A DNA stretch of 39,715 nt from an uncultured Planctomycetales bacterium (GCA_964498235.1 CAZCHB010000001.1:1-39715); one strand, 5' to 3'. Counted from the stretch's first letter, positions 1 to 22,950 are shown. The notes: generated from the letters alone by a model not told the origin. Made by a program: numbers and translations.

Positions 1-3000
1 CATAGGTAATGTGCTCGGGATTAACCACAAGATTATTATCGTTGTCTTTTTTAATAGTAAAGGTAAGGCTCTTAACTACCTCACCTGGTTTATCTGGATT
101 GGCTTTATTAATATCCCACGTGAAGGTCGCTTTATCCGCAACAGACAAATTCTGCGCGGATGGATCGGCGGTGCTGACAAAATTACCATCATAATTATTA
201 ACCAATAAAAACGATGTCGGCTTAATCTGGGCCTCATTCAAGGTCATGGATTGCAGTTCGGCTGTTGTTGCAATGACAGGTTTTGTTTGCGAAGCATTAT
301 CTGTCGGTATCTCAACCGTGATGCCTCGGCCATCCGCGCGGGTCATTACCACCTGTTTCAAACCATAATCGTCATCATAGGCACTTTTAAATTTACTATA
401 TTTTTTAGCTTCCTCTTCTCCCACCATCGATACAATCTTAGCCTTAACCTGTGCTTTTTGTGCGTCGCTAAGCTTTTTCTCTTCTGAAGGTGGTTCTTCT
501 AAGCGGCCCGTTGCCTTGGCGACAACGCCTGGCAGCATAGGCACATTCATTTCCCCGCCGCTAAAAACAAAACCCCACGCGCGGCCGCGGTTATCTTCAT
601 TGTAGAGCGGAGAGGCCTTCCACTGTGCATCGCTTGTTTCAAAACGCCATCCCATTTTTCTTGAATGATTGTCATCGGCCGTTGCTGAATCAATGCTTGT
701 CATCAACTGGCCTGCCCCTGTCAATAAACGCCCGCCCGTGATCTCATAAGAAGAATCGGAAACCGGGCTAAAGCGGCCATAGGTGTCAATGTTGCCGCCA
801 AAACCATTGTCATAATTTTGGTTTGTATGGGAGGTGATAGCATATTCTTCTGGAATATATCCTTCAATAAAGCCTTGCGGATTAATTTTTACCCGTCCGT
901 CCTTCTTTAATTGGTTAAGGACCTCGACGCCCAATTGGCTTTGGTGGATGCGGACACTGCCCCATTCTTTCTGGCCGTAAATATTTTGGACTAAATTCTC
1001 CGTCCCAAAGAAGTTACGGCTGCCGTTATCCATCTTGACTGTCCCGGATAAGACCAGGCTGTTAGGGTCTTTAGGGGCCAGACTTCCCTGCATGGAGAGG
1101 TGATACGCGCCTGTTTCTACAAGGCCGCCATTAAAATCCAGAATATCCAAATCATGACGGGAAACCTTGCTTTCTATATTGCTTGTCAGCGGTGCATCCT
1201 TGGTGATCCCATTGAAAATGCTGGCATTGATGGCATTGAAATTAAAGGTCGGCATGCCGTCTTGGAGATTAAAATATAACGCTGATTTGCCCTCACTAAT
1301 GGCTGTCCTTAACTTACCATAAGCTTTGCCTTGATCCAGATTGTTCATCCCTAGATCAGGTGAATCATTCATATTCAAATGTTCTTTTAAAGAATCGAAG
1401 CCTGCTTCATCAATGGTGCTAAAAAGAGACCCTGTTCCGATCGCCCCCTCTAAAACAACACCGCTGTTAAGGCTGATTGGCTCAACCCCGCCTCTGGTCC
1501 CTGGCCGCACATTCGCCGTTGTTTCGCGGGAATACCATTGCCCGCTGCCGCCTAAGGCTGCCTGATCAACTAATCCTGTTGCGTCAAACTTCACTTCATT
1601 AATCTTAACATTGCGATGCCCGGCTTCTGGCGTATATTGGTCAATATCACCCGTCGCAAGAACATCCAATCCAGCAGGTCGCATAACGCCTCTGTCTGTC
1701 AACAACATGTATTTTAAACTGCTTAATCCTGCTGGATCAGGCATGGCGGTTAATTTGCTGTTGATGATAATATTTTCATTTGTCAACGGATTAGCAACAA
1801 TTCCGACGGTAGAATGATCAACAACATAGGTCGGTTGACCATCAGCGTACCTGACCGTATCGGTTTTTGTCCAGGCAGGAATACCAAATGAGATCGCATC
1901 AAAAACATCCGGGGCATTGCTCTGCGCGCTTGTTGTAACGGTGGCATAGGTCCCGTTATCAACGCGCATCTTGCCATTAACAATATCAATCCCATAAATG
2001 CCATCGCGGTATCCCTCATGGGGAGTCAAGGTGACATTATACGTTGGGGTACTGGTAATCGTAAAATTTTTATCCATCAAGACCCGCACGTCGCTGGTGT
2101 CCTGCGATAATTGGCCGGCGATAAAATGATCGTTAAAGGTGATGCGGCCTTCCGTTAATCCGCTGCCGTAAGGACGGGCATAGGGCACGCCGTCATCCGT
2201 GACCATCTCACCGTTTCCAGCAAAGGTTCCTTTTGGATCAGCCGCAGAAAGGCCAATCTTCGCTAATATCTGGCCATCGGTTAAATTCCCAACAACGCGG
2301 AATAAATTTTTAGGGTCGCCCTGTCTTTGTTGGAAGGGCGTGGCTGGTTCGTTGCCTGCTGGCTCGCCTTTGAATTTGACTTGAACAGGGATTACTGCAT
2401 CTTTAACGCCCTTGAATGTATATTGGAATAATTTTGATTCAACTGGAACTAATTGTTCGATAACACGCCCATCCCTTGTCACATTCCCGGACGTCGCCTG
2501 CGCCCAGCCGCTGACATATTTCATATCATTAGGGCTAAACTGCGCGCCTTGCGCGCCGCTTATCCCAAACACTAAATCCTTGGTCACCGACGTATTAACC
2601 GTAAAAACGTACTTACCCTTATATTCACCATCTTCAACTTCCGCCCCTGACCTGGACTGGTTCCCAAATCCTTTTTCAAAAATCAATTGCGCTTGTTTAT
2701 TCGCGCCAGTCAAAAAGAAATGGTTGTGGGTTTTCCCGTCAGGCGTGATAAAAATAAATTGATTGCGGCCTAAAACGAGGGCATCATTTTTAGCTAAATT
2801 GCGGGCACTTAAATAGGTTTTACCCGGCGTATCCAGATAACGAAAAATACCATAATTCTCAATGACACCGTTGTCGGTGACCACGAGGCGCTCGTCATAG
2901 CTCTTATTGTCCTTGCCGCGGCCGAAATTAAATTGGCCGCCTTTATCGGCGGTAAATATTTCCGGCCGCCCGTTGCCGGGATTGATCATACTGCCATGGG

Positions 3001-6000
3001 CATCGTAAAGGACATGGACATTACCATTTTTGTCTTCTTCAATAAAACCTGCGTTAATATTCGCTTCTGCTTCTTTAAATCCGCTGACCAAGGCCCGTGT
3101 TGCCACCGTGCTGTACCGGCCAACAGCAGGATCCCAAATAAAATTCTTATGCTGAGCGGCCAATCCTTCTTTATCATCGCCCGCACCTTCTTGACGGGGC
3201 ATCTTCCACGCCCCATTGGTCATCGTATAAGCACGCCCGCCGTTAATAACAGCGCCAGCTTTAACCCTGCCATTATTATCAACGGCAATGGAGGGAAGGC
3301 CTTGAACCTTGACAAAATTCACATGCTGTCCATTATCAAAAGTCTTGAAACTGCTGCTTAACACATTGCTTAAGCCTAAATTCTGACCGCTGGTTAAAAC
3401 AATGTTGGCCAGGTTTTTGTCTGCAACGCCTTTATCATCAAAGCTCCAGAACTTCATTGTGCCTTGGAAATTGCCTGACGCAGGAGCGGCGCCGACAAAG
3501 GAGAAAATCTTATCGCCCCCACGGCTTTCGGCACCAATACTAAAGGTAATGTCATTGATGCCCGCATCAGCAGCGCTCTGCGGCAAGACGCCTAAGAATT
3601 GCATATCTGCAGGGCTGTAGGCCTTGCTGATAATCCGCTCATTGATGTTCTTAACAGACCCTTGTGCCTGACCTTGTAATACTCCATCTTTTTTCATTTC
3701 CGCAAGCCATCCATCGCCGCCTTCTGCCTGCACAAACGTGCGCAGGTCGTTTTCTTCCGCCTGGTTTAAGCCAAACATTGATCCGAAATATTTCGCATCA
3801 CCGATAATGCCCATAGTGTTAGCGCCCTGGGCGTTTTTACCTAACCTAAAACCTGTACTGGCAAAATTAGGATCATTAAATCCTTCACGGCTTAAGAAAA
3901 ATTCATTTCTCTTTCCATCAACGCCCATGATTTGAGTTGCCCCTAATTTCCCATACCCCCAAATCTTGCCGAATCTTGAACCGGAGACATTGCTGTAAAT
4001 ATTAGCGGAAGAACCCCATGGGGATTTTGAATCAAAACCTTTGTTAAAGGATGTGGCGACAAACCCGTGCGGAACAGACGCCTTCCATGTGGTGTTAAAT
4101 TCAACACCTTGATCATGCAGGTTTTGTTGATTACGCACATCCGTAAAATTTCCTTCTAAATTAACATTCGCCCCAAGAACTAAGGCGCTTTTAATTGTGT
4201 CGGCAATTGGTGTCCTGCCATCAACAAAGCTATAGCCGTTCTCATCTTTGACAACTAGCGCAACGCCAACCCCTTGGTCATTCTGCACTTGCTGGCCTTC
4301 AGGCGTGATGCCCCATTGTTGAACCTTAGCCGCGGTCTCCGCGTGCATAATAGAGACAGCATAGCGGCCTTCCTTACCGGGCTGTTCATTCCACGCAAAG
4401 GTCATCATATTCTTATCAACACCGGGACAGAAAATCGCACCGCTGCCGACGCCTAGGTATTTTCCATTGACCATGCTCTCCGCGTAAGCATAGCTGGAAT
4501 CATATCCATTTTTACTTACATCGTGTAATTGCGGTCTCCATGTAAAACCATACCCTTCTAATTTTCGCGCTTGTTCCTTTGTGATATATGCAGAGATGGG
4601 AACTTCCACTACAGCCGCGATAAAATTTGTAATGGCAGGCTGTTCAAGCGCATTACTAATATGATCGATATTCATAAGCCCGGGAGTAATCATATTTTGC
4701 TGCCATAAAGCCAAATGGAATTGATCGTCCACGGAAGGCGTAGAAGAAGCCACGGGAATGCCCGATATATAATTTGGCGTAATCAATCCTCCAGCCGCGC
4801 GAGAGGTTCCAAGCGCATTAACGCCTGAGCCAACAACATTGTTAGCTTTTATGGAATTGTAAAGTTTTTCTGTTTGAACAGCCCATTGCGGCGTAAATCC
4901 TGTTAACCTGTCAATGGTATCGCTGTAAGCAACAAAATTAGCCACTGATCCCCAGGTGCCGGTTGATAAAAATTGCCCCAAATAATTTGTCCCAAAAAGC
5001 GCGTCCTTACCGCTTTCGATAAACGCACCCATATTGCTTCTGGCGCTGGCGCCGTTATCAGGCCTGGCCTCATTAATAAATTTATCCGCCGTTCCTTGTG
5101 TATTAAAAATGTTCCCAATATGATTATTCCCCTGATCAAGGATTGACATAAGGCCGCCCGCAGCAACAGAGGAAGCGACAAATACAAGCGCGCGGAATTG
5201 TGCTTTATTGGTACGGTAATCGTAGGTGCCGTCATCCTTGCCAATAAAAGATTTTTCTAAAGAAGCAAAAGCCATTGAAAGAATCGCCCTGGCAGCTCCC
5301 GTCTTTAACGCACTGTAGGCTGACTGCCAAACATCATCCCCTGATCTACCATAAACAAACCCGCTCGTAATACCTGAGGTTCCCGCGCTAACAAATTGAC
5401 CTAAGCCTTGGGAAAAACCATCACTGGCTTTGATGCCTGCCTGCGCGGCAATTAAACGCACCGCCATGCCGCTAAATTGTCCCGCTATAGTTGGAACAGC
5501 GTCCCACATCACCTTGGACATACCGTCAACAAATGACACCGGTTTAATATCATCCGCAATATATATCAATTGCCGCGTATAGGCTGAGTCATACGCGCCC
5601 GACCATGACGTGCCTTTAAAAGAAATGCCTTGGGATTGCACGACGCCTGCAAACGCTTGCGGTTCAATAGCGCCGTCTTTAAGCGTACCCATGATTGCGG
5701 CTTTAGCTTCAGCACCTAAAGCGTCTAATTTCCCAGAAATATACTCCTGCTTAATCACGGCAGGATTAGCGCCTTGTGCTTCTGGAGGCAAAGAATTCAC
5801 ATAACTATCAGCCTGATCATTAAGAGCGGCGGCAACGGCTTGGCTTCCTTTTTCTGCCGCGCTATCTGAGCCGGCCAACCCCAAACTCGGCGTAAAAAAC
5901 GCCCGATCCATCAAATGATCCGCCGCCAAACTAAATGCCCCCACGGCCAAACTGCCGCCTACCGTCGAACCTACAATCATGAGCGTTTCTTTGATAATTT

Positions 6001-7546
6001 GATTTGAATCACTACATTCTTTTGCGGGGTCTGAACAAATCATGTCATCAATAAGCTTAACGATCTGATATTGCGCCTCCGCCTTGATCAATCCCAACAT
6101 TAATCCCTTGCCAAAACTCGCGGCAAAACCTGCCATGGTTAATTCCTTAGTGGCATTTGCGGCAACTGCGGATGCGCTCGCGCCTGGCGCGGCTGTTACG
6201 GCGCTTGACCCTAAATTAAAAAGCTCCTTAAAGAAATCGCCGATCTTATTAAAAATATTATTGATGCCGTTATAAACGTCTTTGATAAATCCGCCGATGC
6301 CCGTGTCCCCGGCTTCTTTGACCATTGCGCCCAATGCGCCTCCAGATGCGGCGGCGGCAGGATCTATATATCCGGCCCCATAGTTAATCCCCATCGACAA
6401 AGCTGCGGAGAGCAAAAACGCGGAATGGCCATCGCAAACACCTTGCATCACGCAGATACTTGTAATGGTGGAAACTAGCGATGACGCGGCAATCCCAAAG
6501 GCCATCCCGTACGGGCTTAAGACCGACATGGCAACCGTCAGCCCAATCTGGGTAAACAATTGTGTATCAGAAACAAAGCCGGGTAAATCCTTGCTTTGGT
6601 CGCGCCACTTATCGCCCCAGACAAATGCTTCTAAAGCTTGAGGAACAGATTCATACAGATTTGACTTGGCCGCCTTTAATAACAGCTTGCTAACAAAGGC
6701 ATAGCCATCCATTTTTTGTTCTAGGTCTTTTTTATCTAAAACTGACAGCTGGCCTAAATCAGCCACCGTAACCTTTTCACCCGAAACTTTTTTAACAGTG
6801 ATAAAATGTTCGCCCTTAAGGTGGACAATAAATGGCGCTTGGAGTTTTAAAATATCTTTGGGCTCTGCCTTAATGCTGGTGTAGTTTAATCCCAGCGCGT
6901 CCCCCACCTTATGGATCGCAAACAAGGTGCTTTTGAGTTTTGGTTCGCCAACCTTGATGATGTCACTCATCAGGTCAACAGAAATATTAAGCACCGCTAA
7001 TTCTTCCAGACTGCGGTTTTTATTTTGGGAATCAACGATATCTTTTAAGCTGTACGCCGCGCAATTAAGCGGATGAATGCCGGGCGCGTTTAACCAGCTA
7101 ATGATTTCCTGAATCTTGGCTTTATTAAATTTGGCCCTGGTCTCAACGTTTAACGCTGAGGATTCAGCACCCATTTTTTTATCCGGACTGTCTAAGTTGA
7201 TTTTTAAGTTAAGTTTATCTTTATCTTTAATCTGCTGTAATAAATACTCAACGCTTTTGGAAACTTGAACCGCCGGCAAAGGCATGGACATGCCGTTTTC
7301 ATTACTACGAACCATGCCAGCGCGTTCGCCCCAAATCACTGCTGGATTATAACCAAAAGCCCAGCTGATTTGATCAGGAATAAATGCGGTCAAAACAACA
7401 ATGGCAATTGTCCTAACCCATGCATTGAAACGACTTACGAAGATTGGAGCAGAAGGATTTAAAACGATGTTTTCCGTAACTGGAGCACCCTCAACGGATG
7501 GAGATGAATCAGGAGAATTATGTAAATTTTTCTCGTCGTGCATCAT
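1..7546 (-). CDS. Giant membrane protein, 5' part only (at least 2515 codons visible, gene continues past the left window edge). It has an N-terminal TM helix, a C39-like peptidase-like domain, a Gly/Ala-rich multi-TM block, then a long hydrophilic region.
   Basis: I read the reverse complement by eye from ATG ATG CAC GAC GAG (complement of 7541-7546) and found no in-frame stop down to base 1. All four minus-strand ORFs listed in 1-7546 (ends 2019, 3216, 4140, 5244) are in a different frame, and no minus ORF in the 7546 frame is listed. That is expected if the track omits ORFs lacking a stop inside the window. The N-terminus reads MMHDEKNLHNSPDSSPSVEG...WVRTIAIVVLTAFIPDQISWAF. Confidence 0.85.
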   Translation of the reverse strand, partial: MMHDEKNLHNSPDSSPSVEGAPVTENIVLNPSAPIFVSRFNAWVRTIAIVVLTAFIPDQISWAFGYNPAVIWGERAGMVRSNENGMSMPLPAVQVSKSVEYLLQQIKDKDKLNLKINLDSPDKKMGAESSALNVETRAKFNKAKIQEIISWLNAPGIHPLNCAAYSLKDIVDSQNKNRSLEELAVLNISVDLMSDIIKVGEPKLKSTLFAIHKVGDALGLNYTSIKAEPKDILKLQAPFIVHLKGEHFITVKKVSGEKVTVADLGQLSVLDKKDLEQKMDGYAFVSKLLLKAAKSNLYESVPQALEAFVWGDKWRDQSKDLPGFVSDTQLFTQIGLTVAMSVLSPYGMAFGIAASSLVSTITSICVMQGVCDGHSAFLLSAALSMGINYGAGYIDPAAAASGGALGAMVKEAGDTGIGGFIKDVYNGINNIFNKIGDFFKELFNLGSSAVTAAPGASASAVAANATKELTMAGFAASFGKGLMLGLIKAEAQYQIVKLIDDMICSDPAKECSDSNQIIKETLMIVGSTVGGSLAVGAFSLAADHLMDRAFFTPSLGLAGSDSAAEKGSQAVAAALNDQADSYVNSLPPEAQGANPAVIKQEYISGKLDALGAEAKAAIMGTLKDGAIEPQAFAGVVQSQGISFKGTSWSGAYDSAYTRQLIYIADDIKPVSFVDGMSKVMWDAVPTIAGQFSGMAVRLIAAQAGIKASDGFSQGLGQFVSAGTSGITSGFVYGRSGDDVWQSAYSALKTGAARAILSMAFASLEKSFIGKDDGTYDYRTNKAQFRALVFVASSVAAGGLMSILDQGNNHIGNIFNTQGTADKFINEARPDNGASARSNMGAFIESGKDALFGTNYLGQFLSTGTWGSVANFVAYSDTIDRLTGFTPQWAVQTEKLYNSIKANNVVGSGVNALGTSRAAGGLITPNYISGIPVASSTPSVDDQFHLALWQQNMITPGLMNIDHISNALEQPAITNFIAAVVEVPISAYITKEQARKLEGYGFTWRPQLHDVSKNGYDSSYAYAESMVNGKYLGVGSGAIFCPGVDKNMMTFAWNEQPGKEGRYAVSIMHAETAAKVQQWGITPEGQQVQNDQGVGVALVVKDENGYSFVDGRTPIADTIKSALVLGANVNLEGNFTDVRNQQNLHDQGVEFNTTWKASVPHGFVATSFNKGFDSKSPWGSSANIYSNVSGSRFGKIWGYGKLGATQIMGVDGKRNEFFLSREGFNDPNFASTGFRLGKNAQGANTMGIIGDAKYFGSMFGLNQAEENDLRTFVQAEGGDGWLAEMKKDGVLQGQAQGSVKNINERIISKAYSPADMQFLGVLPQSAADAGINDITFSIGAESRGGDKIFSFVGAAPASGNFQGTMKFWSFDDKGVADKNLANIVLTSGQNLGLSNVLSSSFKTFDNGQHVNFVKVQGLPSIAVDNNGRVKAGAVINGGRAYTMTNGAWKMPRQEGAGDDKEGLAAQHKNFIWDPAVGRYSTVATRALVSGFKEAEANINAGFIEEDKNGNVHVLYDAHGSMINPGNGRPEIFTADKGGQFNFGRGKDNKSYDERLVVTDNGVIENYGIFRYLDTPGKTYLSARNLAKNDALVLGRNQFIFITPDGKTHNHFFLTGANKQAQLIFEKGFGNQSRSGAEVEDGEYKGKYVFTVNTSVTKDLVFGISGAQGAQFSPNDMKYVSGWAQATSGNVTRDGRVIEQLVPVESKLFQYTFKGVKDAVIPVQVKFKGEPAGNEPATPFQQRQGDPKNLFRVVGNLTDGQILAKIGLSAADPKGTFAGNGEMVTDDGVPYARPYGSGLTEGRITFNDHFIAGQLSQDTSDVRVLMDKNFTITSTPTYNVTLTPHEGYRDGIYGIDIVNGKMRVDNGTYATVTTSAQSNAPDVFDAISFGIPAWTKTDTVRYADGQPTYVVDHSTVGIVANPLTNENIIINSKLTAMPDPAGLSSLKYMLLTDRGVMRPAGLDVLATGDIDQYTPEAGHRNVKINEVKFDATGLVDQAALGGSGQWYSRETTANVRPGTRGGVEPISLNSGVVLEGAIGTGSLFSTIDEAGFDSLKEHLNMNDSPDLGMNNLDQGKAYGKLRTAISEGKSALYFNLQDGMPTFNFNAINASIFNGITKDAPLTSNIESKVSRHDLDILDFNGGLVETGAYHLSMQGSLAPKDPNSLVLSGTVKMDNGSRNFFGTENLVQNIYGQKEWGSVRIHQSQLGVEVLNQLKKDGRVKINPQGFIEGYIPEEYAITSHTNQNYDNGFGGNIDTYGRFSPVSDSSYEITGGRLLTGAGQLMTSIDSATADDNHSRKMGWRFETSDAQWKASPLYNEDNRGRAWGFVFSGGEMNVPMLPGVVAKATGRLEEPPSEEKKLSDAQKAQVKAKIVSMVGEEEAKKYSKFKSAYDDDYGLKQVVMTRADGRGITVEIPTDNASQTKPVIATTAELQSMTLNEAQIKPTSFLLVNNYDGNFVSTADPSAQNLSVADKATFTWDINKANPDKPGEVVKSLTFTIKKDNDNNLVVNPEHITY

Positions 7547-7565: not shown

Positions 7566-7594
7566 ATTATAGCGACGATGCCAGTTTTTAGCAA
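7566..7594 (-). promoter_or_regulatory. Candidate sigma70-type promoter for the giant gene (TTGCTA-17 nt-TATAAT on the minus strand)
   Basis: On the plus strand, ATTATA at 7566-7571 and TAGCAA at 7589-7594 are separated by a 17-nt spacer. The element lies about 20 nt upstream of the ATG at 7546. No clear Shine-Dalgarno sits between them, so the leader would be very short. Confidence 0.3.
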
Positions 7595-7797: not shown

Positions 7798-7900
7798 AAT
7801 TAATGTCCAGACTGGACATTAATTGTGATTTTTTATCAAAACAATCTCCAGTCTGACAAAATTAATGTCCAGACTGGACAATTATTGTCCAGTCTGGAAA
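7798..7900. repeat. Array of four phased copies of the TGTCCAGWCTGGACA palindrome between the tadC stop and the giant-gene promoter
   Basis: Copy A at 7798-7824 is AATTAATGTCCAGACTGGACATTAATT, a perfect 13-1-13 palindrome. Copy B is degenerate (CTCCAGTCTGACA, centre 7852). Copy C has a perfect core at 7866-7880. Copy D at 7886-7900 is TTGTCCAGTCTGGAAA. The centres 7811, 7852, 7873 and 7893 are spaced 41, 21 and 20 bp apart. Confidence 0.9.
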
Positions 7901-7905
7901 GATTA

Positions 7906-8817
7906 CTACTTAGCCAAGTTTTGTAATGGATTATTTTGGAAGAAATCCAAGAAGACCGGACCAGCAACTAAGATGGCCACTACTGGAAAAATAAATAAAA
8001 GCAGCGGAATAAGCATCTTAAGCGGGGCTTTCATCGCCATGGTTTCTCCCCTGCGGAAACGCGCCAAGCGCATGTCTTCAGAGAGAATATTAAGGGCATC
8101 GCTAACCGAGGTCCCCATGCGGTCGGCCTGAATAAGCGTCCGTGAAAAGGTCGACAGGTCAGGCAATTCATATTTGCGAGCCATGTCGCGCAGGGCATCC
8201 CTGCGAGGCTTGCCCACATTGATCTCCTGTATCATATTTTGAAACTCTTCAATCAACACTGATGGAGCAGACTTTTCAATGACATATTTTAAGGCCATCA
8301 TAAAATCAAGACCAGCATTGACGCAAAGCCCTAAAAGATCAACGGTATCCGGCAATTCCCGCACAATTAAATCGCGCACCTTCCTAATTTTCATCTTCAG
8401 CCAAAATTCCGGCAGGTAATACCCCAACCCAACGCTCATCAGCAAACCAAATAAAAATAACTCTGATTTCGGTCCCATATATACAAAGGTCATCCATAAT
8501 AAGACGGCGATAAAGATTTCCTTAATCAAGAAAAACTCATCAGCCTTTATCGGAAGGCGGGCCATGGCCAAATCTTTTGAAATGCGCTGACCTAAGGGGC
8601 TTATAACAAGCGGGAGATTAAAAACGGCCAGCTTGCTGATAATCATAAATATGAAGCCCAGCACCCCCTTCTTCTTTGGGGCCTTAGCAGGCGCCGCCAA
8701 ATCAAAAGGCGTCGGCTCGATATTTAATTTCGGACGGCTATCCCATTTAAAAGGAACAAAAGCCAATACAAAAATAAATACCGAAGCAAAAATAAACATC
8801 AAACATAACAGTAACAT
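7906..8817 (-). CDS. tadC: TadC-like inner-membrane platform protein (T2SS-F/GspF family)
   Basis: The 303-aa protein has several TM segments and a T2SSF-like core (LPDTVDLLGLCVNAGLDFMMALKYVIEKS; RFRRGETMAMKAPLKMLIPLLLFIFP). It is the second of two tandem T2SSF paralogs. Confidence 0.75.
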   Translation of the reverse strand: MLLLCLMFIFASVFIFVLAFVPFKWDSRPKLNIEPTPFDLAAPAKAPKKKGVLGFIFMIISKLAVFNLPLVISPLGQRISKDLAMARLPIKADEFFLIKEIFIAVLLWMTFVYMGPKSELFLFGLLMSVGLGYYLPEFWLKMKIRKVRDLIVRELPDTVDLLGLCVNAGLDFMMALKYVIEKSAPSVLIEEFQNMIQEINVGKPRRDALRDMARKYELPDLSTFSRTLIQADRMGTSVSDALNILSEDMRLARFRRGETMAMKAPLKMLIPLLLFIFPVVAILVAGPVFLDFFQNNPLQNLAK

Positions 8818-8840: not shown

Positions 8841-9698
8841 TTAAATTTCTTTAAATGACGAAATTCTCCAAATGCTTAAGGCCCCCAAGACCCAAAGCAC
8901 AATACAAATCACAAGCAATCTTTGCCCGTCGGGTGTATTTTTCATTACATCAAAGAAATGCTGATTCCCCGTCGATACGCCAAAATAGAAAAGAATCGGA
9001 AGGCCGGTCATAACCACGGCCTGAATTTTTCCTTGAATGGTCAAAGTCGCCAGATTTTGTTCAATTTTTTTGCGCTCGCGCACGGAGCTGATAATACGCG
9101 CGAAGATTAACGCTAAGTTTCCCCCGGTTTCACGGGCTAAAAGAATCGCCGTTACCATTTGCTGAACAGGCGCGGAGGGCATGCGCTTGTATAAACGGTT
9201 TAAGCTTTCATCTAACGGGACGCCCATTTTGTTCTCGCCTAAGACAATCCCAAATTCCTGCTTGATCGGATCAGGCATTTCATCGACGACCGCTTCAATA
9301 GCCTGAATCAAACTTAAACCCCCGCGGAAAGAACTGGACATGATCATCAGGGCATCCATCAATTGATCATAAAACTTGCGTTTGCGCGCCGCAATCAACT
9401 GGTTTAAGCGCATGCGGGGAATCATAAATCCAAGGGTAAGCCCCGCGATTACAAAAATCATCCGCATTTCTTCAGACGCAAATAAAATGGCCAAGGCCGT
9501 CATAAGCAAAGGAAGAAACAGCATCAGCTGCTGCATTTTCTTGATTTGGTCTTCCGTCAAGACGGCATCATACTTAACGACGAATTTTGCCGCGTTCGCC
9601 TGCGACAAAACGCCGCCGCGGTCAATAAGCAAAGGCAATGCGCCTAACACAAGCAAAACCACTGTCGCAAAAATTAAAGCTAAAGTAATAAAAATCAT
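8841..9698 (-). CDS. tadB: TadB-like inner-membrane platform protein (T2SS-F/GspF family)
   Basis: The 285-aa protein has a T2SSF-like core (LMDALMIMSSSFRGGLSLIQAIEAVVDEMPDPIKQEFG; TIQGKIQAVVMTGLPILFYF) and both N- and C-terminal TM helices. Confidence 0.75.
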   Translation of the reverse strand: MIFITLALIFATVVLLVLGALPLLIDRGGVLSQANAAKFVVKYDAVLTEDQIKKMQQLMLFLPLLMTALAILFASEEMRMIFVIAGLTLGFMIPRMRLNQLIAARKRKFYDQLMDALMIMSSSFRGGLSLIQAIEAVVDEMPDPIKQEFGIVLGENKMGVPLDESLNRLYKRMPSAPVQQMVTAILLARETGGNLALIFARIISSVRERKKIEQNLATLTIQGKIQAVVMTGLPILFYFGVSTGNQHFFDVMKNTPDGQRLLVICIVLWVLGALSIWRISSFKEI

Positions 9699-9716: not shown

Positions 9717-10103
9717 TCAAGGATCACAGTTAGTAGGTCCATTTTCCGACGGATTATTGTTTTCACAGCAATACGCTTTCTGCGCGTCCGTACCGCATTG
9801 CATTCTTGCATTGTCTTCGCATACCTTATCCCTCGGTCCGCATAAGGCAGCCTTGTGGGTAAAACAAACATTGTCATACCACACGCCGTAATCAGTTCTT
9901 AACTGCGCGTACGCGCATTCCGCAGTACGTGCCGTTTGATACTGGCGCCCAAAACCAAAGCTGTCGCCGGAGGTTTTCCAATGCCCGTTGAAAACCCGCA
10001 CAATACGCGGCACAGCAACATATAATGCCCCTAAAATTATCACAATAAGAACCACATACTCAATCATCGCAATCGCCCGTATGTTTGAGTGAACGCGCCT
10101 CAT
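9717..10103 (-). CDS. Pilin-like protein with a Flp/TadE-type N-terminus and a Cys-rich C-terminal half
   Basis: The N-terminus is RAIAMIEYVVLIVIILGAL (IEY followed by a hydrophobic helix). I count 8 Cys in the C-terminal 90 aa. GHWKTSGDSFG resembles the GRWKSTVDDFG / GRLKSSTDDIG motif of the 111- and 123-aa paralogs. The start overlaps the upstream stop by 1 nt (TAATG). Confidence 0.6.
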   Translation of the reverse strand: MRRVHSNIRAIAMIEYVVLIVIILGALYVAVPRIVRVFNGHWKTSGDSFGFGRQYQTARTAECAYAQLRTDYGVWYDNVCFTHKAALCGPRDKVCEDNARMQCGTDAQKAYCCENNNPSENGPTNCDP

Positions 10104-12949
10104 TATAAGGCTCCTTTATCGCATTCAGTCCCGCCGACAAATCTTAATTGAATTTGTTCGCGGCCAGCCCCATTGCGGCCCAATTGATAACGCATGCACG
10201 CCTGAGAACTGATGCCAGAGGGCAATAAGTCTTTGACCACATCCCAGCATGCCCCGCTCTTGACATTAATCATAAAGGCATTGCGTAAGTTTTTCTTGTC
10301 GGCTGAGGTTATTCCCTCTCGGATTAAGGCGTCCAGTGTCGCCTTGCTGAGCCCCACGGCATTGCCGTCGTTATCATCGCGCCCCTCGCCGCAGTATCGG
10401 TTAAGGTCATCATTAATCCTGTCCCAGTCCCTAACCGGTGATCCCGGTTTTGAAAACATCAGTTTCCAGATGGGAAACTTATTCGCAAACGAAACGCCTG
10501 CCTGGCGGTCCTGATCCCAACGGGTAATCTTCGCGGCAACCCTCCCCGTGTGAGCTTGCAGTTCATAACAACGCGTGGAACCTAAAAACCCTTTGGTATA
10601 TGTCCGCACCCACGCCAACCGATTAGGACCACAGTTTCCCTTGGGACAATTGCCCGGACCCGAAACTTCCGCGGAAACAATGTGCCAATACGGTCTCGTC
10701 GATGTTTTTACCGGCGCATCTTTCCACCCATAAATAACATATCCCGGCAATTTACTGGAAGGATCAACTAATACACCGTTATAAATATTAATCAAACTAT
10801 CAATGGGGCCGCCATCTTCTAAGAAGGGTTCTAATTTTGCCAGGAACAGATCAATAGCATTAACCAAATCCCGGGCCTTCGTCTTCATTTCTTTAATTAA
10901 ATCAAGACGGGAATTGAATTTCGTTTTCTGGTATTTTACAAAATAGTCACGGCTGTCTTGCGCCCATTTCATATACAGCGACGGCGTTGAACAAAGATCG
11001 TAAGCTGGCGCAGGCCCTACCAACGAACGCGGTAAATTTTGACAGGAAACAGGCAGAGCAGGCGCCGCACCGCCGGCGCACATTAAAAATGCCGTCTGTA
11101 AATCCGCGGCGCAATCACCGAATTTAACATCATTATCCTTATTGTAATCGAAACAAGCCTCGACGCTCTCCAAGCTTCCCCAGCTCCCTTTTGATAAAAT
11201 ATAATTCTCCTCCGCGGTGGATATCAAATTCAAAGGGTTAGCAAGCGCATTGGCCGGCAAGCACCAGGCATTGTTGGAACTGTCTACGTTATCGGTTTTA
11301 GCAAGCCAGCCATTTAACCAGTCTTTAATTTTATTTAACCGCGGCGGATATTGGCGCAAGCGGCCTTTTCCATCGGGAGTTGCGTCTGTACACTGGTGTT
11401 GGTTGGTAATAGTAGTTATCGTATACGGAGACATGTCGGAACCCGCGTCCATCGTTGTAACCACACACTTCTCCTTAGCAAACCACGTCATGGCATCCGG
11501 ATACCACTGATCAATATTTAACCTCAGCTGTGTAGCATCTCCCTTGCCTAAATTATTGCTCCAGACATAAAATTCTTTCAAACCATAAACAATGTCATCC
11601 CATCCGTCTTCCGGCCACTGCTTCTTATTGATCGATTCGGAACAAGACTTGCATTGCGCAACTCCGTCAACATCAACCGTACACGCACCGCTATGTTTGG
11701 CGCAAACATCATACGGCCAACGGGAGGAACAATACAAATCATAACCTTTCTTCCAATTAAGCCCCGGAAGCGCGCTGTCAATATCATTCGTGCACGTGTT
11801 CTCATCGGCAATCTTATAATCACTCGCAGGAAGAACATTGTCCGTAATGATCCCGGATGCAAATGAGTCCGGTGCCGCCGCAGGGCCGATAGCACGATCT
11901 GGATCTGTCAATAATTTTTCCATCCCCCAAAAAATAGAAAACAGGCCCTTGGCATCGCCTTGATGGGGGTCAAAAGGTCCATCGGGAGACGGCTGACGAA
12001 CCTCGGCATCAACGCCCATCTTGGCTAAAAATGAAGTGCCGTTTTTATAATCAGGGTACGCTGGATCATAGGCATAATAAAACGTGCTCGCGTGCGGCCA
12101 CACCGTGGTATTCGCACAGCCGGGAGGAATATTATCCGCAGAGCAATACCCCGGCCTTAACCTAGGCGCGCTATACGGGTCAAGATTTGGATCTTTAAGG
12201 GGAACACAACATGGGTTGCAATGCGGATCATTAATATCCGTACAAGGAACTGTGATTTCTGCGCTTAACCCCCTTAACGCGTTTAAAAAAAGCGTAAGAT
12301 CATCCGCCGCAACTACCTGTAAGCTTTTTAATCGTTCAGTATAATAAATCCCAAAGCGTGGCACCATGTCCTCTGGCCTGGCTCCGCTAAAACCAATCAT
12401 CCCATTGGTGTTTAAATCAAAAAGATCCGGCACTTGAATTGGATCAGTAACTACATTTTGAATCCCATTCTGCACGCCCTGCTCGACAAATTGCGCGGTA
12501 ATCGGCAAATTAGACTGCATCTTATTCCACAGCCGCGTGAGACCCGGCTGGACAACCAGCACCTGCAAAGCCAGATTTAAAACAGCCATGGCTACCGCGG
12601 CCGCCAATAATGGAGCTGTTGCTGCGCCAAATACCGCTCCGCAGGCCGCGCAAGCCACGCTCAAGAAAACAATGGCAACAACAATAAGCAAGGTCAAAAA
12701 CGCCGCAAAAATACTATTTCTTTTACAAATTTTGGAAACCCCCCCCAAACTAGTCTGCATGACTTTCTCAGCATAACTCGCATAACTGGAGCCCATGGAT
12801 GAGGCGGTCGTTGTCGCCGCTGACATGGTCAAGGTTTTGACTTGGGCAATGCGCTGCCAATTAAGTGAAATGGCAAAAAAGATAATCGCCATGGCGGTCA
12901 GCAAAATCAATATTAAGGACGCCTGTCCTTGGGCTTGTTGTCGTCTCAT
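10103..12949 (-). CDS. TadG-like large pilus-associated protein with a Cys-rich extracytoplasmic region
   Basis: The 948-aa protein begins GQASLILILLTAMAIIFFAISLNWQRIAQVKTLTMSAATTTASSMG, which resembles the TadG/Tad_N pattern. A second hydrophobic block follows, then about 800 aa containing roughly 27 Cys by my count. I saw no obvious vWA MIDAS motif. It overlaps both neighbouring genes, consistent with translational coupling. Confidence 0.55.
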   Translation of the reverse strand: MRRQQAQGQASLILILLTAMAIIFFAISLNWQRIAQVKTLTMSAATTTASSMGSSYASYAEKVMQTSLGGVSKICKRNSIFAAFLTLLIVVAIVFLSVACAACGAVFGAATAPLLAAAVAMAVLNLALQVLVVQPGLTRLWNKMQSNLPITAQFVEQGVQNGIQNVVTDPIQVPDLFDLNTNGMIGFSGARPEDMVPRFGIYYTERLKSLQVVAADDLTLFLNALRGLSAEITVPCTDINDPHCNPCCVPLKDPNLDPYSAPRLRPGYCSADNIPPGCANTTVWPHASTFYYAYDPAYPDYKNGTSFLAKMGVDAEVRQPSPDGPFDPHQGDAKGLFSIFWGMEKLLTDPDRAIGPAAAPDSFASGIITDNVLPASDYKIADENTCTNDIDSALPGLNWKKGYDLYCSSRWPYDVCAKHSGACTVDVDGVAQCKSCSESINKKQWPEDGWDDIVYGLKEFYVWSNNLGKGDATQLRLNIDQWYPDAMTWFAKEKCVVTTMDAGSDMSPYTITTITNQHQCTDATPDGKGRLRQYPPRLNKIKDWLNGWLAKTDNVDSSNNAWCLPANALANPLNLISTAEENYILSKGSWGSLESVEACFDYNKDNDVKFGDCAADLQTAFLMCAGGAAPALPVSCQNLPRSLVGPAPAYDLCSTPSLYMKWAQDSRDYFVKYQKTKFNSRLDLIKEMKTKARDLVNAIDLFLAKLEPFLEDGGPIDSLINIYNGVLVDPSSKLPGYVIYGWKDAPVKTSTRPYWHIVSAEVSGPGNCPKGNCGPNRLAWVRTYTKGFLGSTRCYELQAHTGRVAAKITRWDQDRQAGVSFANKFPIWKLMFSKPGSPVRDWDRINDDLNRYCGEGRDDNDGNAVGLSKATLDALIREGITSADKKNLRNAFMINVKSGACWDVVKDLLPSGISSQACMRYQLGRNGAGREQIQLRFVGGTECDKGAL

Positions 12950-13173
12950 TTCCAGCCTTGGAAAACCGCAGATAAAGGTTTAGGACGATAAAAATCTGTT
13001 TTTAATTGCTCATTAGGATCTGGGCTTTCCGTCAAAGATTTCTCAAAAGTCCAGCGGCGCTCCGCCAAATCCATGCCGGCCCAGCGAAAGATTTGGATCA
13101 GCCCGTACGCTAATAAAAAAAATGCTATTATCACAAAGGTAAATTCAATGGTCGATTGGCCGCGTTTTCTCAT
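12946..13173 (-). CDS. TadE-like minor pilin
   Basis: The 75-aa protein begins KRGQSTIEFTFVIIAFFLLAYGL, which has a G/QxxxEF class-III signal motif. It has 4-nt overlaps with both flanking genes. Confidence 0.65.
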   Translation of the reverse strand: MRKRGQSTIEFTFVIIAFFLLAYGLIQIFRWAGMDLAERRWTFEKSLTESPDPNEQLKTDFYRPKPLSAVFQGWK

Positions 13174-14525: not shown

Positions 14526-14533
14526 ATCCGTCT

Positions 14534-14869
14534 CTAATTACTGCCGACGATTGTATTGCCGTTCTTCGTCTCAACCGATGTCGTATTATCTAAACGTGTG
14601 GTGTAATAACCCGGCTGGCCCGTAATAGGATGCAAGTCCAGATGCCCAACGCCAATTTGTGTTTCGGAATTAGAAATTAAGGAATAGTCTGTCTGTGAAT
14701 TGGTGGTGTCCGGATCATATTGCTCGCCGAAATCATCCACCGTTGATTTCCAGCGTCCTTGAAAGCCCCGCTTAAAATACATCTGCATGGTGATAAAAAC
14801 AGCAATAATAATGACCACCAAAACCGTGTATTCCAACGTGCTCTGAGCTTTTCTTTTGAACATCATCAT
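14534..14869 (-). CDS. Flp/TadE-type pilin-like protein
   Basis: The 111-aa protein begins KRKAQSTLEYTVLVVIIIAVF. It is a paralog of the 123-aa product (KRGFQGRWKSTVDDFGEQYDPDTTN versus KRGVQGRLKSSTDDIGDQYSEGNTN). Confidence 0.65.
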   Translation of the reverse strand: MMMFKRKAQSTLEYTVLVVIIIAVFITMQMYFKRGFQGRWKSTVDDFGEQYDPDTTNSQTDYSLISNSETQIGVGHLDLHPITGQPGYYTTRLDNTTSVETKNGNTIVGSN

Positions 14870-14881
14870 ATGCTCCCTGAT

Positions 14882-15720: not shown

Positions 15721-15744
15721 CCTTATTATACTGTTGACGCTAAA

Positions 15745-16116: not shown

Positions 16117-16173
16117 GTTGTGATCCTCCTTGATAAACGTTTCTATCTTTAAACAAAAACCTTTCAGGAAACC

Positions 16174-16554: not shown

Positions 16555-16588
16555 TTTTATTTCCCCCTTTTTAGGAGCTGATTTCTTG

Positions 16589-16616
16589 ATATTAAATAAT
16601 TAATGTTCCCTGTCAA
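16589..16616 (-). promoter_or_regulatory. Candidate internal sigma70-type promoter (TTGACA-16 nt-TAATAT on the minus strand)
   Basis: On the plus strand, TGTCAA at 16611-16616 and ATATTA at 16589-16594 lie upstream of the 126-aa pilin-like gene. Confidence 0.35.
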
Positions 16617-16629
16617 ATTAGGCAATTCT

Positions 16630-16839: not shown

Positions 16840-16873
16840 TTTTTTCCTCCTTAACTACGGAAAAATATAATTA

Positions 16874-21161: not shown

Positions 21162-21164
21162 ATT

Positions 21165-21211: not shown

Positions 21212-21229
21212 ATTTGTCATTAAAGGAGT

Positions 21230-22948: not shown

Positions 22949-22950
22949 AC

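What the first reader, a model, noticed from the sequence alone, without database searches (positions are those of the whole stretch)
1..7546. Giant ORF hidden from the ORF track, immediately downstream of the Tad-like secretion/pilus operon
The track shows only short, mostly plus-strand ORFs across 7.5 kb. The minus strand in the 7546 frame is nevertheless open for all 2515 visible codons and continues beyond the window. Neither an alternative genetic code nor a non-coding region is needed to explain the gap.

The product starts with a TM helix and a peptidase-like domain, followed by about 450 aa of Gly/Ala-rich hydrophobic segments. After that come more than 1700 aa of hydrophilic sequence rich in N, G, T and D with no repeats I could spot.

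The gene is co-oriented with tadC and separated from it only by the palindrome array. Giant membrane-anchored proteins next to T2SS/Tad-like loci have been described from metagenomic Omnitrophota, where they were proposed to mediate prey or host attachment. I cannot establish taxonomy from this window, but the architecture fits that pattern.
Basis: partly seen in the sequence, partly recalled or inferred. Interest (0 to 1): 0.8.

Follow-up and report, generated by a model that had tools for sequence, protein, structure and literature searches.

The report
Truncated Omnitrophota giant gene beside Tad locus
The first 7.5 kb of the window is the start of a real, very large membrane-protein gene of a type already described in Omnitrophota bacteria, with a protease domain at its front end and a Tad-type pilus/secretion gene cluster just upstream, so it is a new example of a known but poorly understood pattern.

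Summary
The minus strand from 7546 to the window edge is one ORF of 2515 codons with no stop (chance about 1e-64). Codon usage matches the window's housekeeping genes along its whole length. It was missing from the ORF list only because ORFs that run off a sequence end are not listed.

The product has these parts:
- a cytoplasmic tail
- a highly conserved TM helix
- a C39 cysteine-peptidase domain, supported by Pfam, a confident AlphaFold model and Foldseek hits to LahT, PCAT1 and ComA
- a conserved AFVWG...LPG motif
- a Gly/Ala-rich hydrophobic region of about 670 aa
- at least 1515 aa of repeat-free hydrophilic sequence with no detectable homologue among 5.8 billion proteins

The N-terminal module defines a family (163 clusters at E<=1e-30). 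It is found almost only in Omnitrophota MAGs and usually heads proteins of 3,500 to over 7,800 aa. All 20 related loci with enough upstream DNA keep the order p948-p128-TadB-TadC-giant.

West-Roberts et al. 2023 already describe the N-terminal C39 and the upstream T2SS/Tad-like locus with a Rotamase_2 PPIase. This is therefore a new member of a known kind. True length, substrate and function remain unknown.

The parts
1..7546 (-). 5' part (2515 codons, no stop) of the giant gene; continues beyond the window edge
   Evidence: open frame, native codon usage in frame 0 only, P(no stop) ~1e-64
7424..7546 (-). aa 1-41: N-terminal tail, predicted cytoplasmic
   Evidence: Across the family, K+R in the 15 residues before TM1 exceeds K+R after it in 143/182 members and is lower in 5/182. 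Low pLDDT, so probably disordered
7358..7423 (-). aa 42-63: TM helix 1 / signal anchor with a family-conserved motif (S38, F40, W43, A48, F55, P57, Q59, A63, Y66)
   Evidence: Hydropathy; helix H42-63 in the model; Q59 and A63 invariant in 61 sequences
6647..7279 (-). aa 90-300: C39 cysteine-peptidase module, made of a family-specific N-terminal sub-domain (aa ~90-155) and the papain-like core
   Evidence: Pfam PF03412 36.7 bits, cut-off 22; AlphaFold pLDDT >90 over 90-310; Foldseek best hits 6mpz, 7n87, 3k8u and 5xe8, with TM 0.62-0.71 normalised to the target
7061..7063 (-). Cys162 codon, putative catalytic nucleophile at the N-terminus of helix 162-173
   Evidence: C in 176/185 family members; invariant in A2; helix start in the model
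6806..6808 (-). His247 codon, putative catalytic histidine (EHF motif)
   Evidence: H in 172/181; aligns with the NHFVV histidine position of LahT150 6mpz
6758..6760 (-). Asp263 codon, putative third triad residue
   Evidence: D 141 + E 18 of 176; aligns with the D of 'INDPA' in 6mpz
6578..6628 (-). aa 307-323: conserved AFVWG-x-KW-x-D-x-S-x-x-LPG linker motif between C39 and the membrane region
   Evidence: G311 is G in 167/171, P322 in 95/122, G323 in 103/120; residues to ~310 pack on the C39 core at pLDDT ~96
4547..6559 (-). aa 330-1000: Gly/Ala/Ser-rich region with moderately hydrophobic segments (334-371, 469-487, 521-542, 784-805, 970-989), a probable multi-pass membrane anchor
   Evidence: Hydropathy and composition; similarity to P0001-P0003 over aa 416-573 and 657-996 only; number of matching family members falls from 166 to 4 along this region
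2..4546 (-). aa 1001-2515: hydrophilic, G/N/T/D-rich, Cys-poor, repeat-free orphan region; inferred extracytoplasmic ectodomain
   Evidence: No hit in 5.8e9 proteins, in PDB sequences, in 177 family members, or to itself; one weak hit in 32 related loci (L014); no Pfam domain at E<=1; codon usage native; no hydrophobic segment
7547..7905 (.). 359-nt AT-rich spacer (GC ~0.35 for window 7001-8000) between the TadC-like gene and the giant gene
7868..7898 (-). Terminator-like hairpin (14-bp stem from two adjacent palindrome copies, then a T-rich tail) 8 nt after the tadC stop
7566..7594 (-). Promoter-like site TTGCTA-17 nt-TATAAT, ending 20 nt upstream of the ATG
   Evidence: 10/12 consensus match; a pattern match only
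7798..7824 (.). Perfect 27-bp palindrome AATTAATGTCCAGACTGGACATTAATT; further copies at 7860-7886 and 7880-7898, and four more elsewhere in the window
7906..8817 (-). TadC-like T2SSF platform protein (303 aa)
   Evidence: PF00482 E 3e-18; 53-85% identical homologues directly upstream of the giant gene in related loci
8841..9698 (-). TadB-like T2SSF platform protein (285 aa)
   Evidence: PF00482 E 1.5e-16; conserved position in 20/20 loci
9717..12949 (-). 128-aa and Cys-rich 948-aa proteins with class III (Flp/TadE-type) signal peptides; conserved partners upstream of TadB
   Evidence: Sequences; homologues in the same order in related loci; no Pfam or NCBIfam hit
12946..17026 (-). Nine more ORFs (50-451 aa) with G|QxxxEY-type class III signal peptides: Flp pilin and pseudopilin candidates
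18665..24767 (-). Rest of the Tad-like locus: DUF192, CpaE/TadZ-CpaF fusion ATPase, RcpA-type secretin with a TonB_C domain, RcpC/CpaB, and a Rotamase_2 PPIase
   Evidence: matches the locus described in West-Roberts 2023

Best explanation
Window 1-7546 (minus strand) is the first 2515 codons of a genuine, native, very large membrane-protein gene of an Omnitrophota bacterium. It belongs to the class of Omnitrophota giant proteins that begin with a TM helix plus a C39 peptidase and are encoded directly after the TadB/TadC genes of a Tad-like (type IVc pilus / T2SS-like) locus.

Proposed working, with status of each step:
1. Inferred: the gene is transcribed from its own promoter in the 359-nt spacer, about 28 kb from oriC and co-directionally with replication.
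2. Inferred from the positive-inside rule: TM1 inserts N-in, so the C39 domain sits on the outer face of the cytoplasmic membrane.
3. Fold and residue conservation shown, activity inferred: the C39 domain is a catalytically competent Cys-His-Asp peptidase, not a degenerate chaperone-like domain.
4. Inferred: the Gly/Ala-rich hydrophobic block anchors the protein in the membrane.
5. Inferred, by analogy with longer relatives: the long hydrophilic, fast-evolving region lies outside the cytoplasm and is the business end that contacts other cells or surfaces. The gene continues for at least another thousand codons to a second TM cluster.
6. Hypothesis: the peptidase processes the giant protein itself, or a partner from the Tad-like locus, during surface display. 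The Tad-like machine provides attachment and/or export.
For: - Real gene: open frame and native codon usage.
- C39: Pfam above cut-off; AlphaFold model with mean pLDDT 83; Foldseek top hits are all double-glycine peptidase domains (6mpz, 7n87, 3k8u, 5xe8), prob 1.00 and TM ~0.7. Cys at a helix N-terminus.
- Triad conservation: C 176/185, H 172/181, D/E 159/176; C162 and H247 invariant in 61 diverse members.
- Family: 163 clusters at E<=1e-30 in 1.84e9 representatives. The module sits at the N-terminus of proteins up to 7820 aa.
- Taxonomy: 28 loci in species-representative genomes, nearly all Omnitrophota MAGs.
- Synteny: p948-p128-TadB-TadC-giant in 20/20 loci with at least 2.5 kb of upstream DNA.
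- Length: of the 18 related ORFs with at least 2515 codons between start and locus end, 16 are still open at 3,480-3,770 aa, where the fetched DNA ends.
- Layout of long relatives: TM1, a hydrophobic cluster at ~350-850, a TM-free stretch of 2,000-3,300 aa, then a second TM cluster.
- Topology: K+R higher before TM1 than after it in 143/182, lower in 5/182.
- Own promoter: terminator-like hairpin after tadC and a TTGCTA-17-TATAAT site 20 nt before the ATG. Relatives have unrelated genes inserted between tadC and the giant gene, and the spacer is at least 318 nt everywhere.
- Literature describing the same pattern.
Against: - The stop codon is not in the window, and the source contig could not be found. 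In 4 of 32 related loci the homologous ORF ends before 2,515 aa (527, 1464, 2256 aa, plus one disrupted copy, L023), and in 2 more at 2658 and 3228 aa. 'Giant' in the published sense (over 20 kb) is therefore unproven.
- No domain or homologue informs the function of aa 1001-2515.
- Topology rests on a charge rule and a crude hydropathy scan, not a dedicated predictor. The parity of the TM segments between C39 and the hydrophilic region is unknown.
- In the window protein itself the charge bias around TM1 is neutral, 1 against 1.
- No substrate or cleavage site is identified. The conserved G311 is preceded by Trp, not the Gly/Ala/Ser that double-glycine peptidases need.
- Promoter and terminator calls are consensus matches only.
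- No expression data.
Confidence: 0.72

Rival explanations
1. It is a merely large protein of roughly 2.6-3.5 thousand aa that stops soon after the window edge. Another large ORF may follow, so the 'giant' is really a string of separate genes.
For: Related C39-led ORFs stop at 1464 aa (L001), 2256 aa (L020), 2658 aa (L003) and 3228 aa (L002). In L001 and L002 a further ORF of more than 2800-3000 aa follows.
Against: Of the 18 related ORFs with at least 2515 codons between start and locus end, 16 are still open at 3,480-3,770 aa, where the fetched DNA ends. Family representatives reach 5,000-7,800 aa. No second TM cluster, which long relatives have at ~aa 2,500-4,200, has yet appeared in the window protein.
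Confidence: 0.2
2. The C39-like domain is a non-catalytic substrate-binding or chaperone domain, like the C39-like domain of HlyB, and merely tethers the giant protein or a partner during export.
For: The HlyB C39-like domain (3zua, 7sgr) is also among the structural matches. No double-glycine cleavage motif was found in the giant protein or its neighbours. West-Roberts et al. mention this possibility.
Against: HlyB-type domains lack the catalytic Cys (established knowledge, Lecher 2012 as cited). Here Cys, His and Asp/Glu are kept in about 90-95% of ~180 members, and Cys and His are invariant in a 61-sequence alignment with only 12% mean column identity. Active peptidase domains score better than the HlyB domain in Foldseek.
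Confidence: 0.15
3. The ORF is an artefact: a mis-assembly, a pseudogene remnant, or a chance open frame in non-coding DNA.
For: aa 1001-2515 has no homologue anywhere. One relative (L023) is disrupted. No read data are available.
Against: P(no stop) is about 1e-64. Frame-specific codon usage equals that of housekeeping genes in every 500-codon segment, including the orphan part. The N-terminal 1000 aa have homologues with conserved synteny. Lack of conservation in the distal part is the published norm for these proteins.
Confidence: 0.03
4. The fused C39 domain matures the many Flp/TadE-type prepilins of the adjacent locus, standing in for a TadV/CpaA prepilin peptidase. The giant protein would then be primarily part of the pilus machinery.
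For: About 11 genes with class III signal peptides, cleaved after Gly, lie upstream. No A24 prepilin peptidase was found among window ORFs of at least 100 aa. C39 peptidases cleave after Gly. Linkage to TadB/TadC is strict.
Against: The prepilins have K/R/N/Q-Gly, not Gly-Gly/Ala-Gly, before the cleavage site. Prepilin cleavage normally occurs at the cytoplasmic face, whereas the C39 domain is predicted on the outer face. An A24 peptidase may be encoded elsewhere in the genome; only 39.7 kb is visible. This does not explain the thousands of additional residues.
Confidence: 0.05

Closest known systems
Omnitrophota giant proteins with N-terminal C39 and an upstream T2SS/Tad-like locus (West-Roberts et al. 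2023, bioRxiv 10.1101/2023.11.21.568195; the PF03412-only architecture cluster of the 2026 preprint 10.64898/2026.06.07.730766; giant ORFs of Seymour et al. 2023, PMC10066038)
   Same: - N-terminal hydrophobic segment followed by C39.
- Few or no other annotated domains, and a poorly conserved body.
- Preceded by a locus of more than 10 genes with secretin (gspD/RcpA), ATPase (gspE/CpaF), two gspF/TadBC genes, rcpC, a Rotamase_2 PPIase and small class III signal-peptide genes.
- Found in Omnitrophota MAGs.
- As in V. archaeovorus LiM, the Tad locus lies within about 30 kb of the replication origin.
   Different: - Only 2515 aa are visible, so the length criterion, SecA-DEAD domain, second TM cluster and downstream pilZ/solute-binding genes cannot be checked.
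- None of the Archaeovorin enzyme domains (GT, GH, methyltransferase, NUDIX) or dockerin/TSP3 repeats occur in the visible part.
- The source species is not among GTDB representatives; the best N-module identity is 53-58%.
Peptidase C39 domains of peptidase-containing ABC transporters (PCAT1, ComA, LahT; PF03412)
   Same: Papain-like fold with Cys at a helix N-terminus, His and Asp. These are the best structural matches, with TM ~0.7 normalised to the target.
   Different: - No ABC transmembrane or nucleotide-binding domain follows.
- The domain is preceded by a TM helix and predicted to face outward rather than into the cytoplasm.
- It carries an extra sub-domain of about 65 aa (aa 90-155) and a trailing AFVWG...LPG motif.
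- Sequence identity is 15-22%.
- No double-glycine substrate is identified.
LapA/LapG-type control of giant adhesins (periplasmic cysteine protease releasing a giant surface protein). This is a functional analogy from general knowledge, not homology.
   Same: A giant surface protein paired with an extracytoplasmic cysteine peptidase, which could cut the protein free from its N-terminal retention or anchor element.
   Different: - LapG is a C93/BTLCP-family enzyme encoded separately. LapA is an RTX adhesin exported by a type I system and has repeats.
- Here the peptidase is C39 and fused in cis, the neighbouring machine is Tad-like, and the body has no repeats.
- No cleavage has been shown.
Tad / Flp (type IVc) pilus systems, e.g. 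Caulobacter Cpa, Aggregatibacter Tad, and the Bdellovibrio-like predator Tad loci cited in PMC10066038
   Same: The adjacent locus has a CpaF-type ATPase, a CpaE/TadZ-type ParA domain, TadB, TadC, an RcpA/CpaC secretin with the T2SS-T3SS_pil_N domain, RcpC/CpaB, and Flp-like and TadE-like class III signal peptides.
   Different: - CpaE and CpaF are fused, and the secretin carries a TonB_C domain.
- No A24 prepilin peptidase, TadD or RcpB was detected in the window.
- There is an unusually large set of about 11 pilin-like genes, including 451-aa and 948-aa Cys-rich ones.
- A giant C39-led gene is fixed at the 3' end of the locus.

Membership tests
Peptidase C39 (PF03412 / MEROPS C39) | Profile match above the curated threshold | tested here: met
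   36.7 bits against a gathering score of 22, E 4.3e-9, aa 203-283
Peptidase C39 (PF03412 / MEROPS C39) | Papain-like C39 fold | tested here: met
   Model pLDDT >90 over aa 90-310. The top 22 Foldseek PDB hits are all C39 or C39-like domains, prob 1.00, TM up to 0.71 normalised to the target
Peptidase C39 (PF03412 / MEROPS C39) | Catalytic Cys, His and Asp present | tested here: met
   C162, H247 and D263 are present and conserved (176/185, 172/181, 159/176 including Glu). His and Asp align with the NHF and ND positions of 6mpz. Cys starts helix 162-173. Triad geometry could not be measured because model coordinates are not exposed
Peptidase C39 (PF03412 / MEROPS C39) | Cleaves a double-glycine leader peptide | not testable with these tools
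   No GG-type leader was found in neighbours or in the giant protein. This needs biochemistry
Peptidase-containing ABC transporter (PCAT) | C39 fused to an ABC transmembrane domain and nucleotide-binding domain | tested here: not met
   No ABC_membrane or ABC_tran hit in 2515 aa at E<=1. The NCBIfam PCAT model hits only the C39 part, at 14.9 bits against a cut-off of 853
Omnitrophota giant proteins with an upstream T2SS/Tad-like locus (West-Roberts 2023) | N-terminal C39 next to an N-terminal hydrophobic signal or anchor | tested here: met
   TM at aa 42-63, C39 at aa 90-300
Omnitrophota giant proteins with an upstream T2SS/Tad-like locus (West-Roberts 2023) | Preceded by a secretion locus of more than 10 genes with gspD, gspE, gspF, rcpC, a Rotamase_2 PPIase and small class III signal-peptide genes | tested here: met
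   Secretin, T2SSE, two T2SSF, RcpC, Rotamase_2 and about 11 class III signal-peptide ORFs between 7906 and 24767; description
Omnitrophota giant proteins with an upstream T2SS/Tad-like locus (West-Roberts 2023) | Host is a member of phylum Omnitrophota | tested here: inconclusive
   All named homologues and 28 syntenic loci come from MAGs labelled Omnitrophota/Omnitrophica, with a few bins labelled Planctomycetales or Elusimicrobia. No marker-gene phylogeny of the window itself was run
Omnitrophota giant proteins with an upstream T2SS/Tad-like locus (West-Roberts 2023) | Giant length (ORF over 20 kb in Seymour 2023; tens of thousands of aa in West-Roberts 2023) | not testable with these tools
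   The ORF is cut at window base 1. The source contig was not found. Relatives suggest more than 3,500 aa
Omnitrophota giant proteins with an upstream T2SS/Tad-like locus (West-Roberts 2023) | Numerous TM regions, a divergent SecA DEAD domain, and downstream pilZ and solute-binding genes | not testable with these tools
   Only the first hydrophobic cluster is visible. The distal parts lie outside the window
'Archaeovorin' sub-type | Glycosyl transferase, glycosyl hydrolase, methyltransferase and NUDIX domains | tested here: inconclusive
   None in the visible 2515 aa, but the rest of the protein is unseen
Tad / Flp pilus system (neighbouring locus) | CpaF/TadA ATPase, TadZ/CpaE, TadB, TadC, RcpA/CpaC secretin, RcpC/CpaB, Flp pilin | tested here: met
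   Pfam hits. A 50-aa ORF at 16874-17026 has the G|QNLIEY Flp-type leader
Tad / Flp pilus system (neighbouring locus) | Dedicated A24 prepilin peptidase (TadV/CpaA) | tested here: not met
   No Peptidase_A24 hit among the 26 window ORFs of at least 100 aa that were scanned. It may be encoded outside the window

The most novel reading that the evidence does not exclude
The TM1-C39-AFVWG module is an outward-facing, catalytically active self-processing device. The invariantly adjacent Tad-like locus is not, or not only, a pilus. It would be a dedicated machine that displays or exports giant, hypervariable ectodomains, with C39 cleavage releasing or activating them. This would be a previously uncharacterised secretion and maturation route for multi-thousand-residue proteins in ultra-small predatory or epibiotic bacteria.
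Probability: 0.15. Interest if true: 0.8.

Novelty: new member of a known kind. Interest (0 to 1): 0.4.

Why it matters
Giant genes take up a striking share of the small genomes of Omnitrophota. They are thought to underlie attachment to, or attack on, other cells, but no function has been shown for any of them.

This locus adds a clean, origin-proximal example from a species not in the reference set. The comparative work done here sharpens testable points:
- The leading C39 domain keeps its catalytic triad across the family and is predicted to face outward.
- TM1 is as conserved as the active site.
- The gene is fixed immediately after TadB/TadC.
- The distal body evolves so fast that 1515 aa have no detectable relative in 5.8 billion proteins.

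These points suggest concrete experiments: C162A mutants, cleavage-site mapping, and interaction with the TadBC platform. The general phenomenon is already published, so the find itself is confirmatory rather than surprising.

Tried and rejected
1. Exact-sequence look-up of the window's TadC, to recover the source contig and extend the gene: not on record.
2. Exact 36-mer from window bases 11-46 against metagenome contigs: no match. The stop codon could not be found.
3. First AlphaFold run with a 6-sequence alignment: mean pLDDT 45, unusable outside the C39 core. Replaced by a 61-sequence alignment.
5. Pfam on the longest relatives failed because of the 5000-aa limit. P0001 and P0115 gave only C39, plus a DnaJ domain in P0115.
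6. Homology and PDB searches with aa 1001-2515 alone: nothing.
7. Idea that the TGTCCAGWCTGGACA palindromes are parS. Considered because copies sit upstream of parA and inside parB. Set aside because a canonical parS-like GTTCCACGTGGAAC lies at 37794 and the palindrome is absent from all related loci. It remains unexplained.
8. Known RNA element in the spacer: only sub-threshold hairpin matches to miRNA models, caused by the palindromes.
9. G311 (AFVWG|) as a double-glycine-type autocleavage site: position -2 is Trp/Leu/Lys, incompatible with known C39 specificity. Not adopted.
10. Internal repeats or tandem repeats in the ORF: none.
Full report
**1. Observation**

Translating window 1-7546 on the minus strand gives 2515 sense codons and no stop. 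The frame opens five codons after an in-frame TGA and starts with ATGATG at 7546. Relatives begin at the equivalent position.

From the base composition about 143 stops would be expected, so the chance of none is about 1e-64. A codon model trained on the window's own housekeeping genes scores each of five consecutive segments at 0.29-0.35 bits per codon in this frame. The reference genes score 0.33-0.41. All five other frames are negative. The ORF is therefore coding, native in codon usage, and continuous.

The mechanical ORF list shows only 113-142-aa ORFs here, because ORFs that run off an end are not listed. That fully explains why it was 'hidden'. No alternative code is needed.

**2. Anatomy of the visible product**

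- **aa 1-41:** low-confidence tail.
- **aa 42-63:** a hydrophobic helix.
- **aa ~90-300:** a C39 peptidase. Pfam PF03412 scores 36.7 bits against a cut-off of 22.
- **aa 307-323:** a conserved AFVWG-x-KW-x-D-x-S-x-x-LPG linker.
- **aa ~330-1000:** rich in Ala, Gly and Ser, with five to seven moderately hydrophobic segments.
- **aa 1001-2515:** hydrophilic, rich in G, N, T and D, almost Cys-free, with no hydrophobic segment.

The protein has no internal repeats and no Pfam domain other than C39 even at E<=1.

A 6-sequence alignment gave a poor model. A 61-sequence alignment gave mean pLDDT 83, above 90 across aa 90-310. Foldseek against the PDB returns only double-glycine peptidase domains at the top: LahT150 6mpz, PCAT1 7n87/6v9z, and ComA 3k8u/5xe8, all at probability 1.00 and TM about 0.7 normalised to the target. 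The non-catalytic HlyB C39-like domain ranks lower.

Cys162 sits at the N-terminus of helix 162-173, as in papain-like enzymes. His247 and Asp263 align with the NHF and ND positions of 6mpz.

**3. Family and conservation**

The whole protein found only five relatives in 5.8 billion sequences. All have C39, and two are named Candidatus Omnitrophica. Similarity is confined to aa 6-350 in all five, and to aa 416-573 and 657-996 in three.

A profile of the N-terminal module finds 601 clusters at 50% identity with E<=1e-3, and 163 with E<=1e-30, in 1.84 billion representatives. The module is almost always at the N-terminus, in proteins of up to 7820 aa.

Across about 180 members:
- the Cys is kept in 176/185;
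- the His in 172/181;
- the Asp (or Glu) in 159/176.

In a 61-sequence alignment with only 12% mean column identity, the invariant columns are Q59, A63, C162, D191 and H247. This argues for an active peptidase. It also shows that the TM helix and its juxtamembrane segment are as constrained as the active site, so TM1 is more than a passive anchor (inference).

K+R counts around TM1 favour N-in in 143 of 182 members and N-out in 5. The domain usually holds a single Cys. The C39 domain is therefore predicted on the outer face of the cytoplasmic membrane, unlike the cytoplasmic C39 of PCAT transporters. This is a prediction from a charge rule only. In the window protein itself the bias is neutral.

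**4. The distal part**

aa 1001-2515 has no hit in the 5.8-billion-protein collection, none in PDB sequences, none among 177 family members, and one weak hit in 32 related loci (L014). Yet its codon usage is native. It is a fast-evolving, lineage-specific region, which matches the published remark that these ORFs are poorly conserved.

Long relatives share a layout:
- TM1;
- a hydrophobic cluster at about aa 350-850;
- a TM-free stretch of about 2,000-3,300 aa;
- a second TM cluster, followed in some by Walker-A-containing sequence.

By analogy the window's orphan region is the long loop between the two membrane clusters, and the gene should continue.

Of the 18 related ORFs with at least 2515 codons between start and locus end, 16 are still open at 3,480-3,770 aa, where the fetched DNA ends. 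The other two stop at 2658 and 3228 aa. Four loci stop earlier or are disrupted. Where the C39 ORF stops, another ORF of more than 2,800 aa can follow.

**5. Genomic context**

The window is an origin region:
- dnaA, dnaN, gyrB and gyrA lie on the minus strand, and yidC, parA and parB on the plus strand.
- Perfect DnaA boxes flank dnaA.
- The GC skew turns at about 35-36 kb.

The giant gene starts about 28 kb from the origin and is transcribed co-directionally with replication.

Between gyrA and the giant gene lies a Tad-like locus:
- a Rotamase_2 PPIase;
- RcpC/CpaB;
- an RcpA-type secretin fused to TonB_C;
- a CpaE/TadZ-CpaF fusion ATPase;
- DUF192;
- a 469-aa HTH protein;
- about eleven ORFs with Flp/TadE class III signal peptides, including Cys-rich 451-aa and 948-aa proteins;
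- TadB and TadC.

No A24 prepilin peptidase is present in the window.

In 20 of 20 related loci with at least 2.5 kb of upstream DNA the order p948-like, p128-like, TadB, TadC, C39-giant is kept. Three more loci show TadC at their truncated edge. All named records are Omnitrophota MAGs apart from a few bins labelled Planctomycetales or Elusimicrobia. The best identity is 53-58%, so the source species is not among the GTDB representatives.

**6. The spacer**

The 359-nt spacer is AT-rich. It holds three copies of a palindrome whose full form is AATTAATGTCCAGACTGGACATTAATT.

Two adjacent copies form a 14-bp-stem hairpin with a T-rich tail 8 nt after the tadC stop. A TTGCTA-17-TATAAT match ends 20 nt before the ATG. 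Relatives always have a spacer of at least 318 nt, sometimes with toxin-antitoxin or AAA genes inserted. I infer an independent promoter rather than obligatory co-transcription with tadBC.

No Rfam family matches the spacer.

The palindrome is not specific to this spacer. Four more copies lie upstream of the 469-aa HTH gene, upstream of parA, and inside yidC and parB. That makes 7 copies against 0.02 expected. None occur in related loci. A canonical parS-like site is present separately. The palindrome's role is unresolved.

**7. Comparison with what is known**

West-Roberts et al. 2023 state that full-length Omnitrophota giant proteins have C39 domains near the N-terminus next to predicted signal peptides. 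[quoted passage not shown]

The 2026 complete-genome preprint reports a PF03412-only group as the largest architecture cluster of long Omnitrophota proteins, and secretion or pilus genes flanking 13 of 14 giants. Seymour et al. 2023 report Tad loci and giant ORFs across the phylum, and place the V. archaeovorus Tad locus at 12-30 kb of its chromosome.

The window matches all features that can be checked. The length criterion, SecA-DEAD domain and downstream genes cannot be checked. It is not a PCAT, because no ABC domains are present.

**8. Verdict**

This is a new member of a known, poorly understood kind.

The increments from this analysis are:
- family-wide triad conservation;
- the predicted outward-facing C39;
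- a highly conserved TM1;
- strict TadBC adjacency;
- the complete lack of relatives for the distal 1515 aa.

The function (surface contact with or attack on other cells, with C39-mediated processing) remains a hypothesis. Interest is moderate at 0.4.

Noticed in passing
window 7798-7898, 18638-18652, 36526-36540, 37835-37849, 38805-38819: A 15-bp palindrome TGTCCAGWCTGGACA, often extended to a 27-bp palindrome with AATTAA/TTAATT flanks, occurs 7 times in 39.7 kb against 0.02 expected. Copies lie after tadC, upstream of a 469-aa HTH gene, upstream of parA, and inside the yidC and parB coding sequences. It is absent from 32 related loci. Its function is unknown: operator, ParB-paralogue site or REP-like element.
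   Followed up: partly
window 37794-37809 and 37695-37710: Canonical parS-like sites (cGTTCCACGTGGAACt and tGCGTCACGTGAAACc) lie in the yidC-parA intergenic region.
   Followed up: partly
window 33985-33993, 34047-34055, 35451-35459; GC-skew minimum ~35-36 kb: Three perfect DnaA boxes flank dnaA, and gene orientation and GC skew switch there. The window therefore spans oriC, and the giant gene lies about 28 kb away, co-oriented with replication.
   Followed up: partly
window 21230-22948 (-): The RcpA/CpaC-type secretin (Secretin + T2SS-T3SS_pil_N) carries a C-terminal TonB_C domain, an unusual fusion.
   Followed up: no
window 18990-21161 (-): A single 723-aa protein fuses a ParA/MinD-like (CpaE/TadZ-type) domain to the CpaF/T2SSE secretion ATPase.
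   Followed up: no
window 17208-18617 (-): A 469-aa protein with a weak N-terminal HTH / IS481-transposase-like match sits inside the Tad-like locus, with a palindrome copy just upstream of its start. It is a possible locus regulator.
   Followed up: no
window 9717-17026 (-): About eleven ORFs (50 to 948 aa) carry Flp/TadE-type class III signal peptides. They include Cys-rich 451-aa and 948-aa proteins with no Pfam or NCBIfam match. The 948-aa and 128-aa proteins are conserved upstream of TadB in all related loci. No A24 prepilin peptidase is in the window.
   Followed up: partly
L001 9041-9614; L003 1740-2242, 5318-5948 and 8006-9169: In relatives, toxin-antitoxin pairs (PemK, YoeB/Phd, VapBC) and AAA-ATPase genes are inserted within or next to the Tad-giant junction. 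This suggests the junction tolerates mobile insertions.
   Followed up: no
L002 15752-24988; L001 15532-23949: Where the C39-led ORF ends (3228 and 1459 aa), a second ORF of more than 2,800-3,000 aa follows closely. It may be a split version of a single giant gene.
   Followed up: no
P0090, P0118, P0126, P0150, P0162: A few family members carry the C39 module internally or in 3-4 copies rather than once at the N-terminus.
   Followed up: no
window 27513-27589 (+): A lone tRNA-Glu(UUC) lies on the plus strand between gyrA and a GST gene, opposite to all surrounding genes.
   Followed up: no
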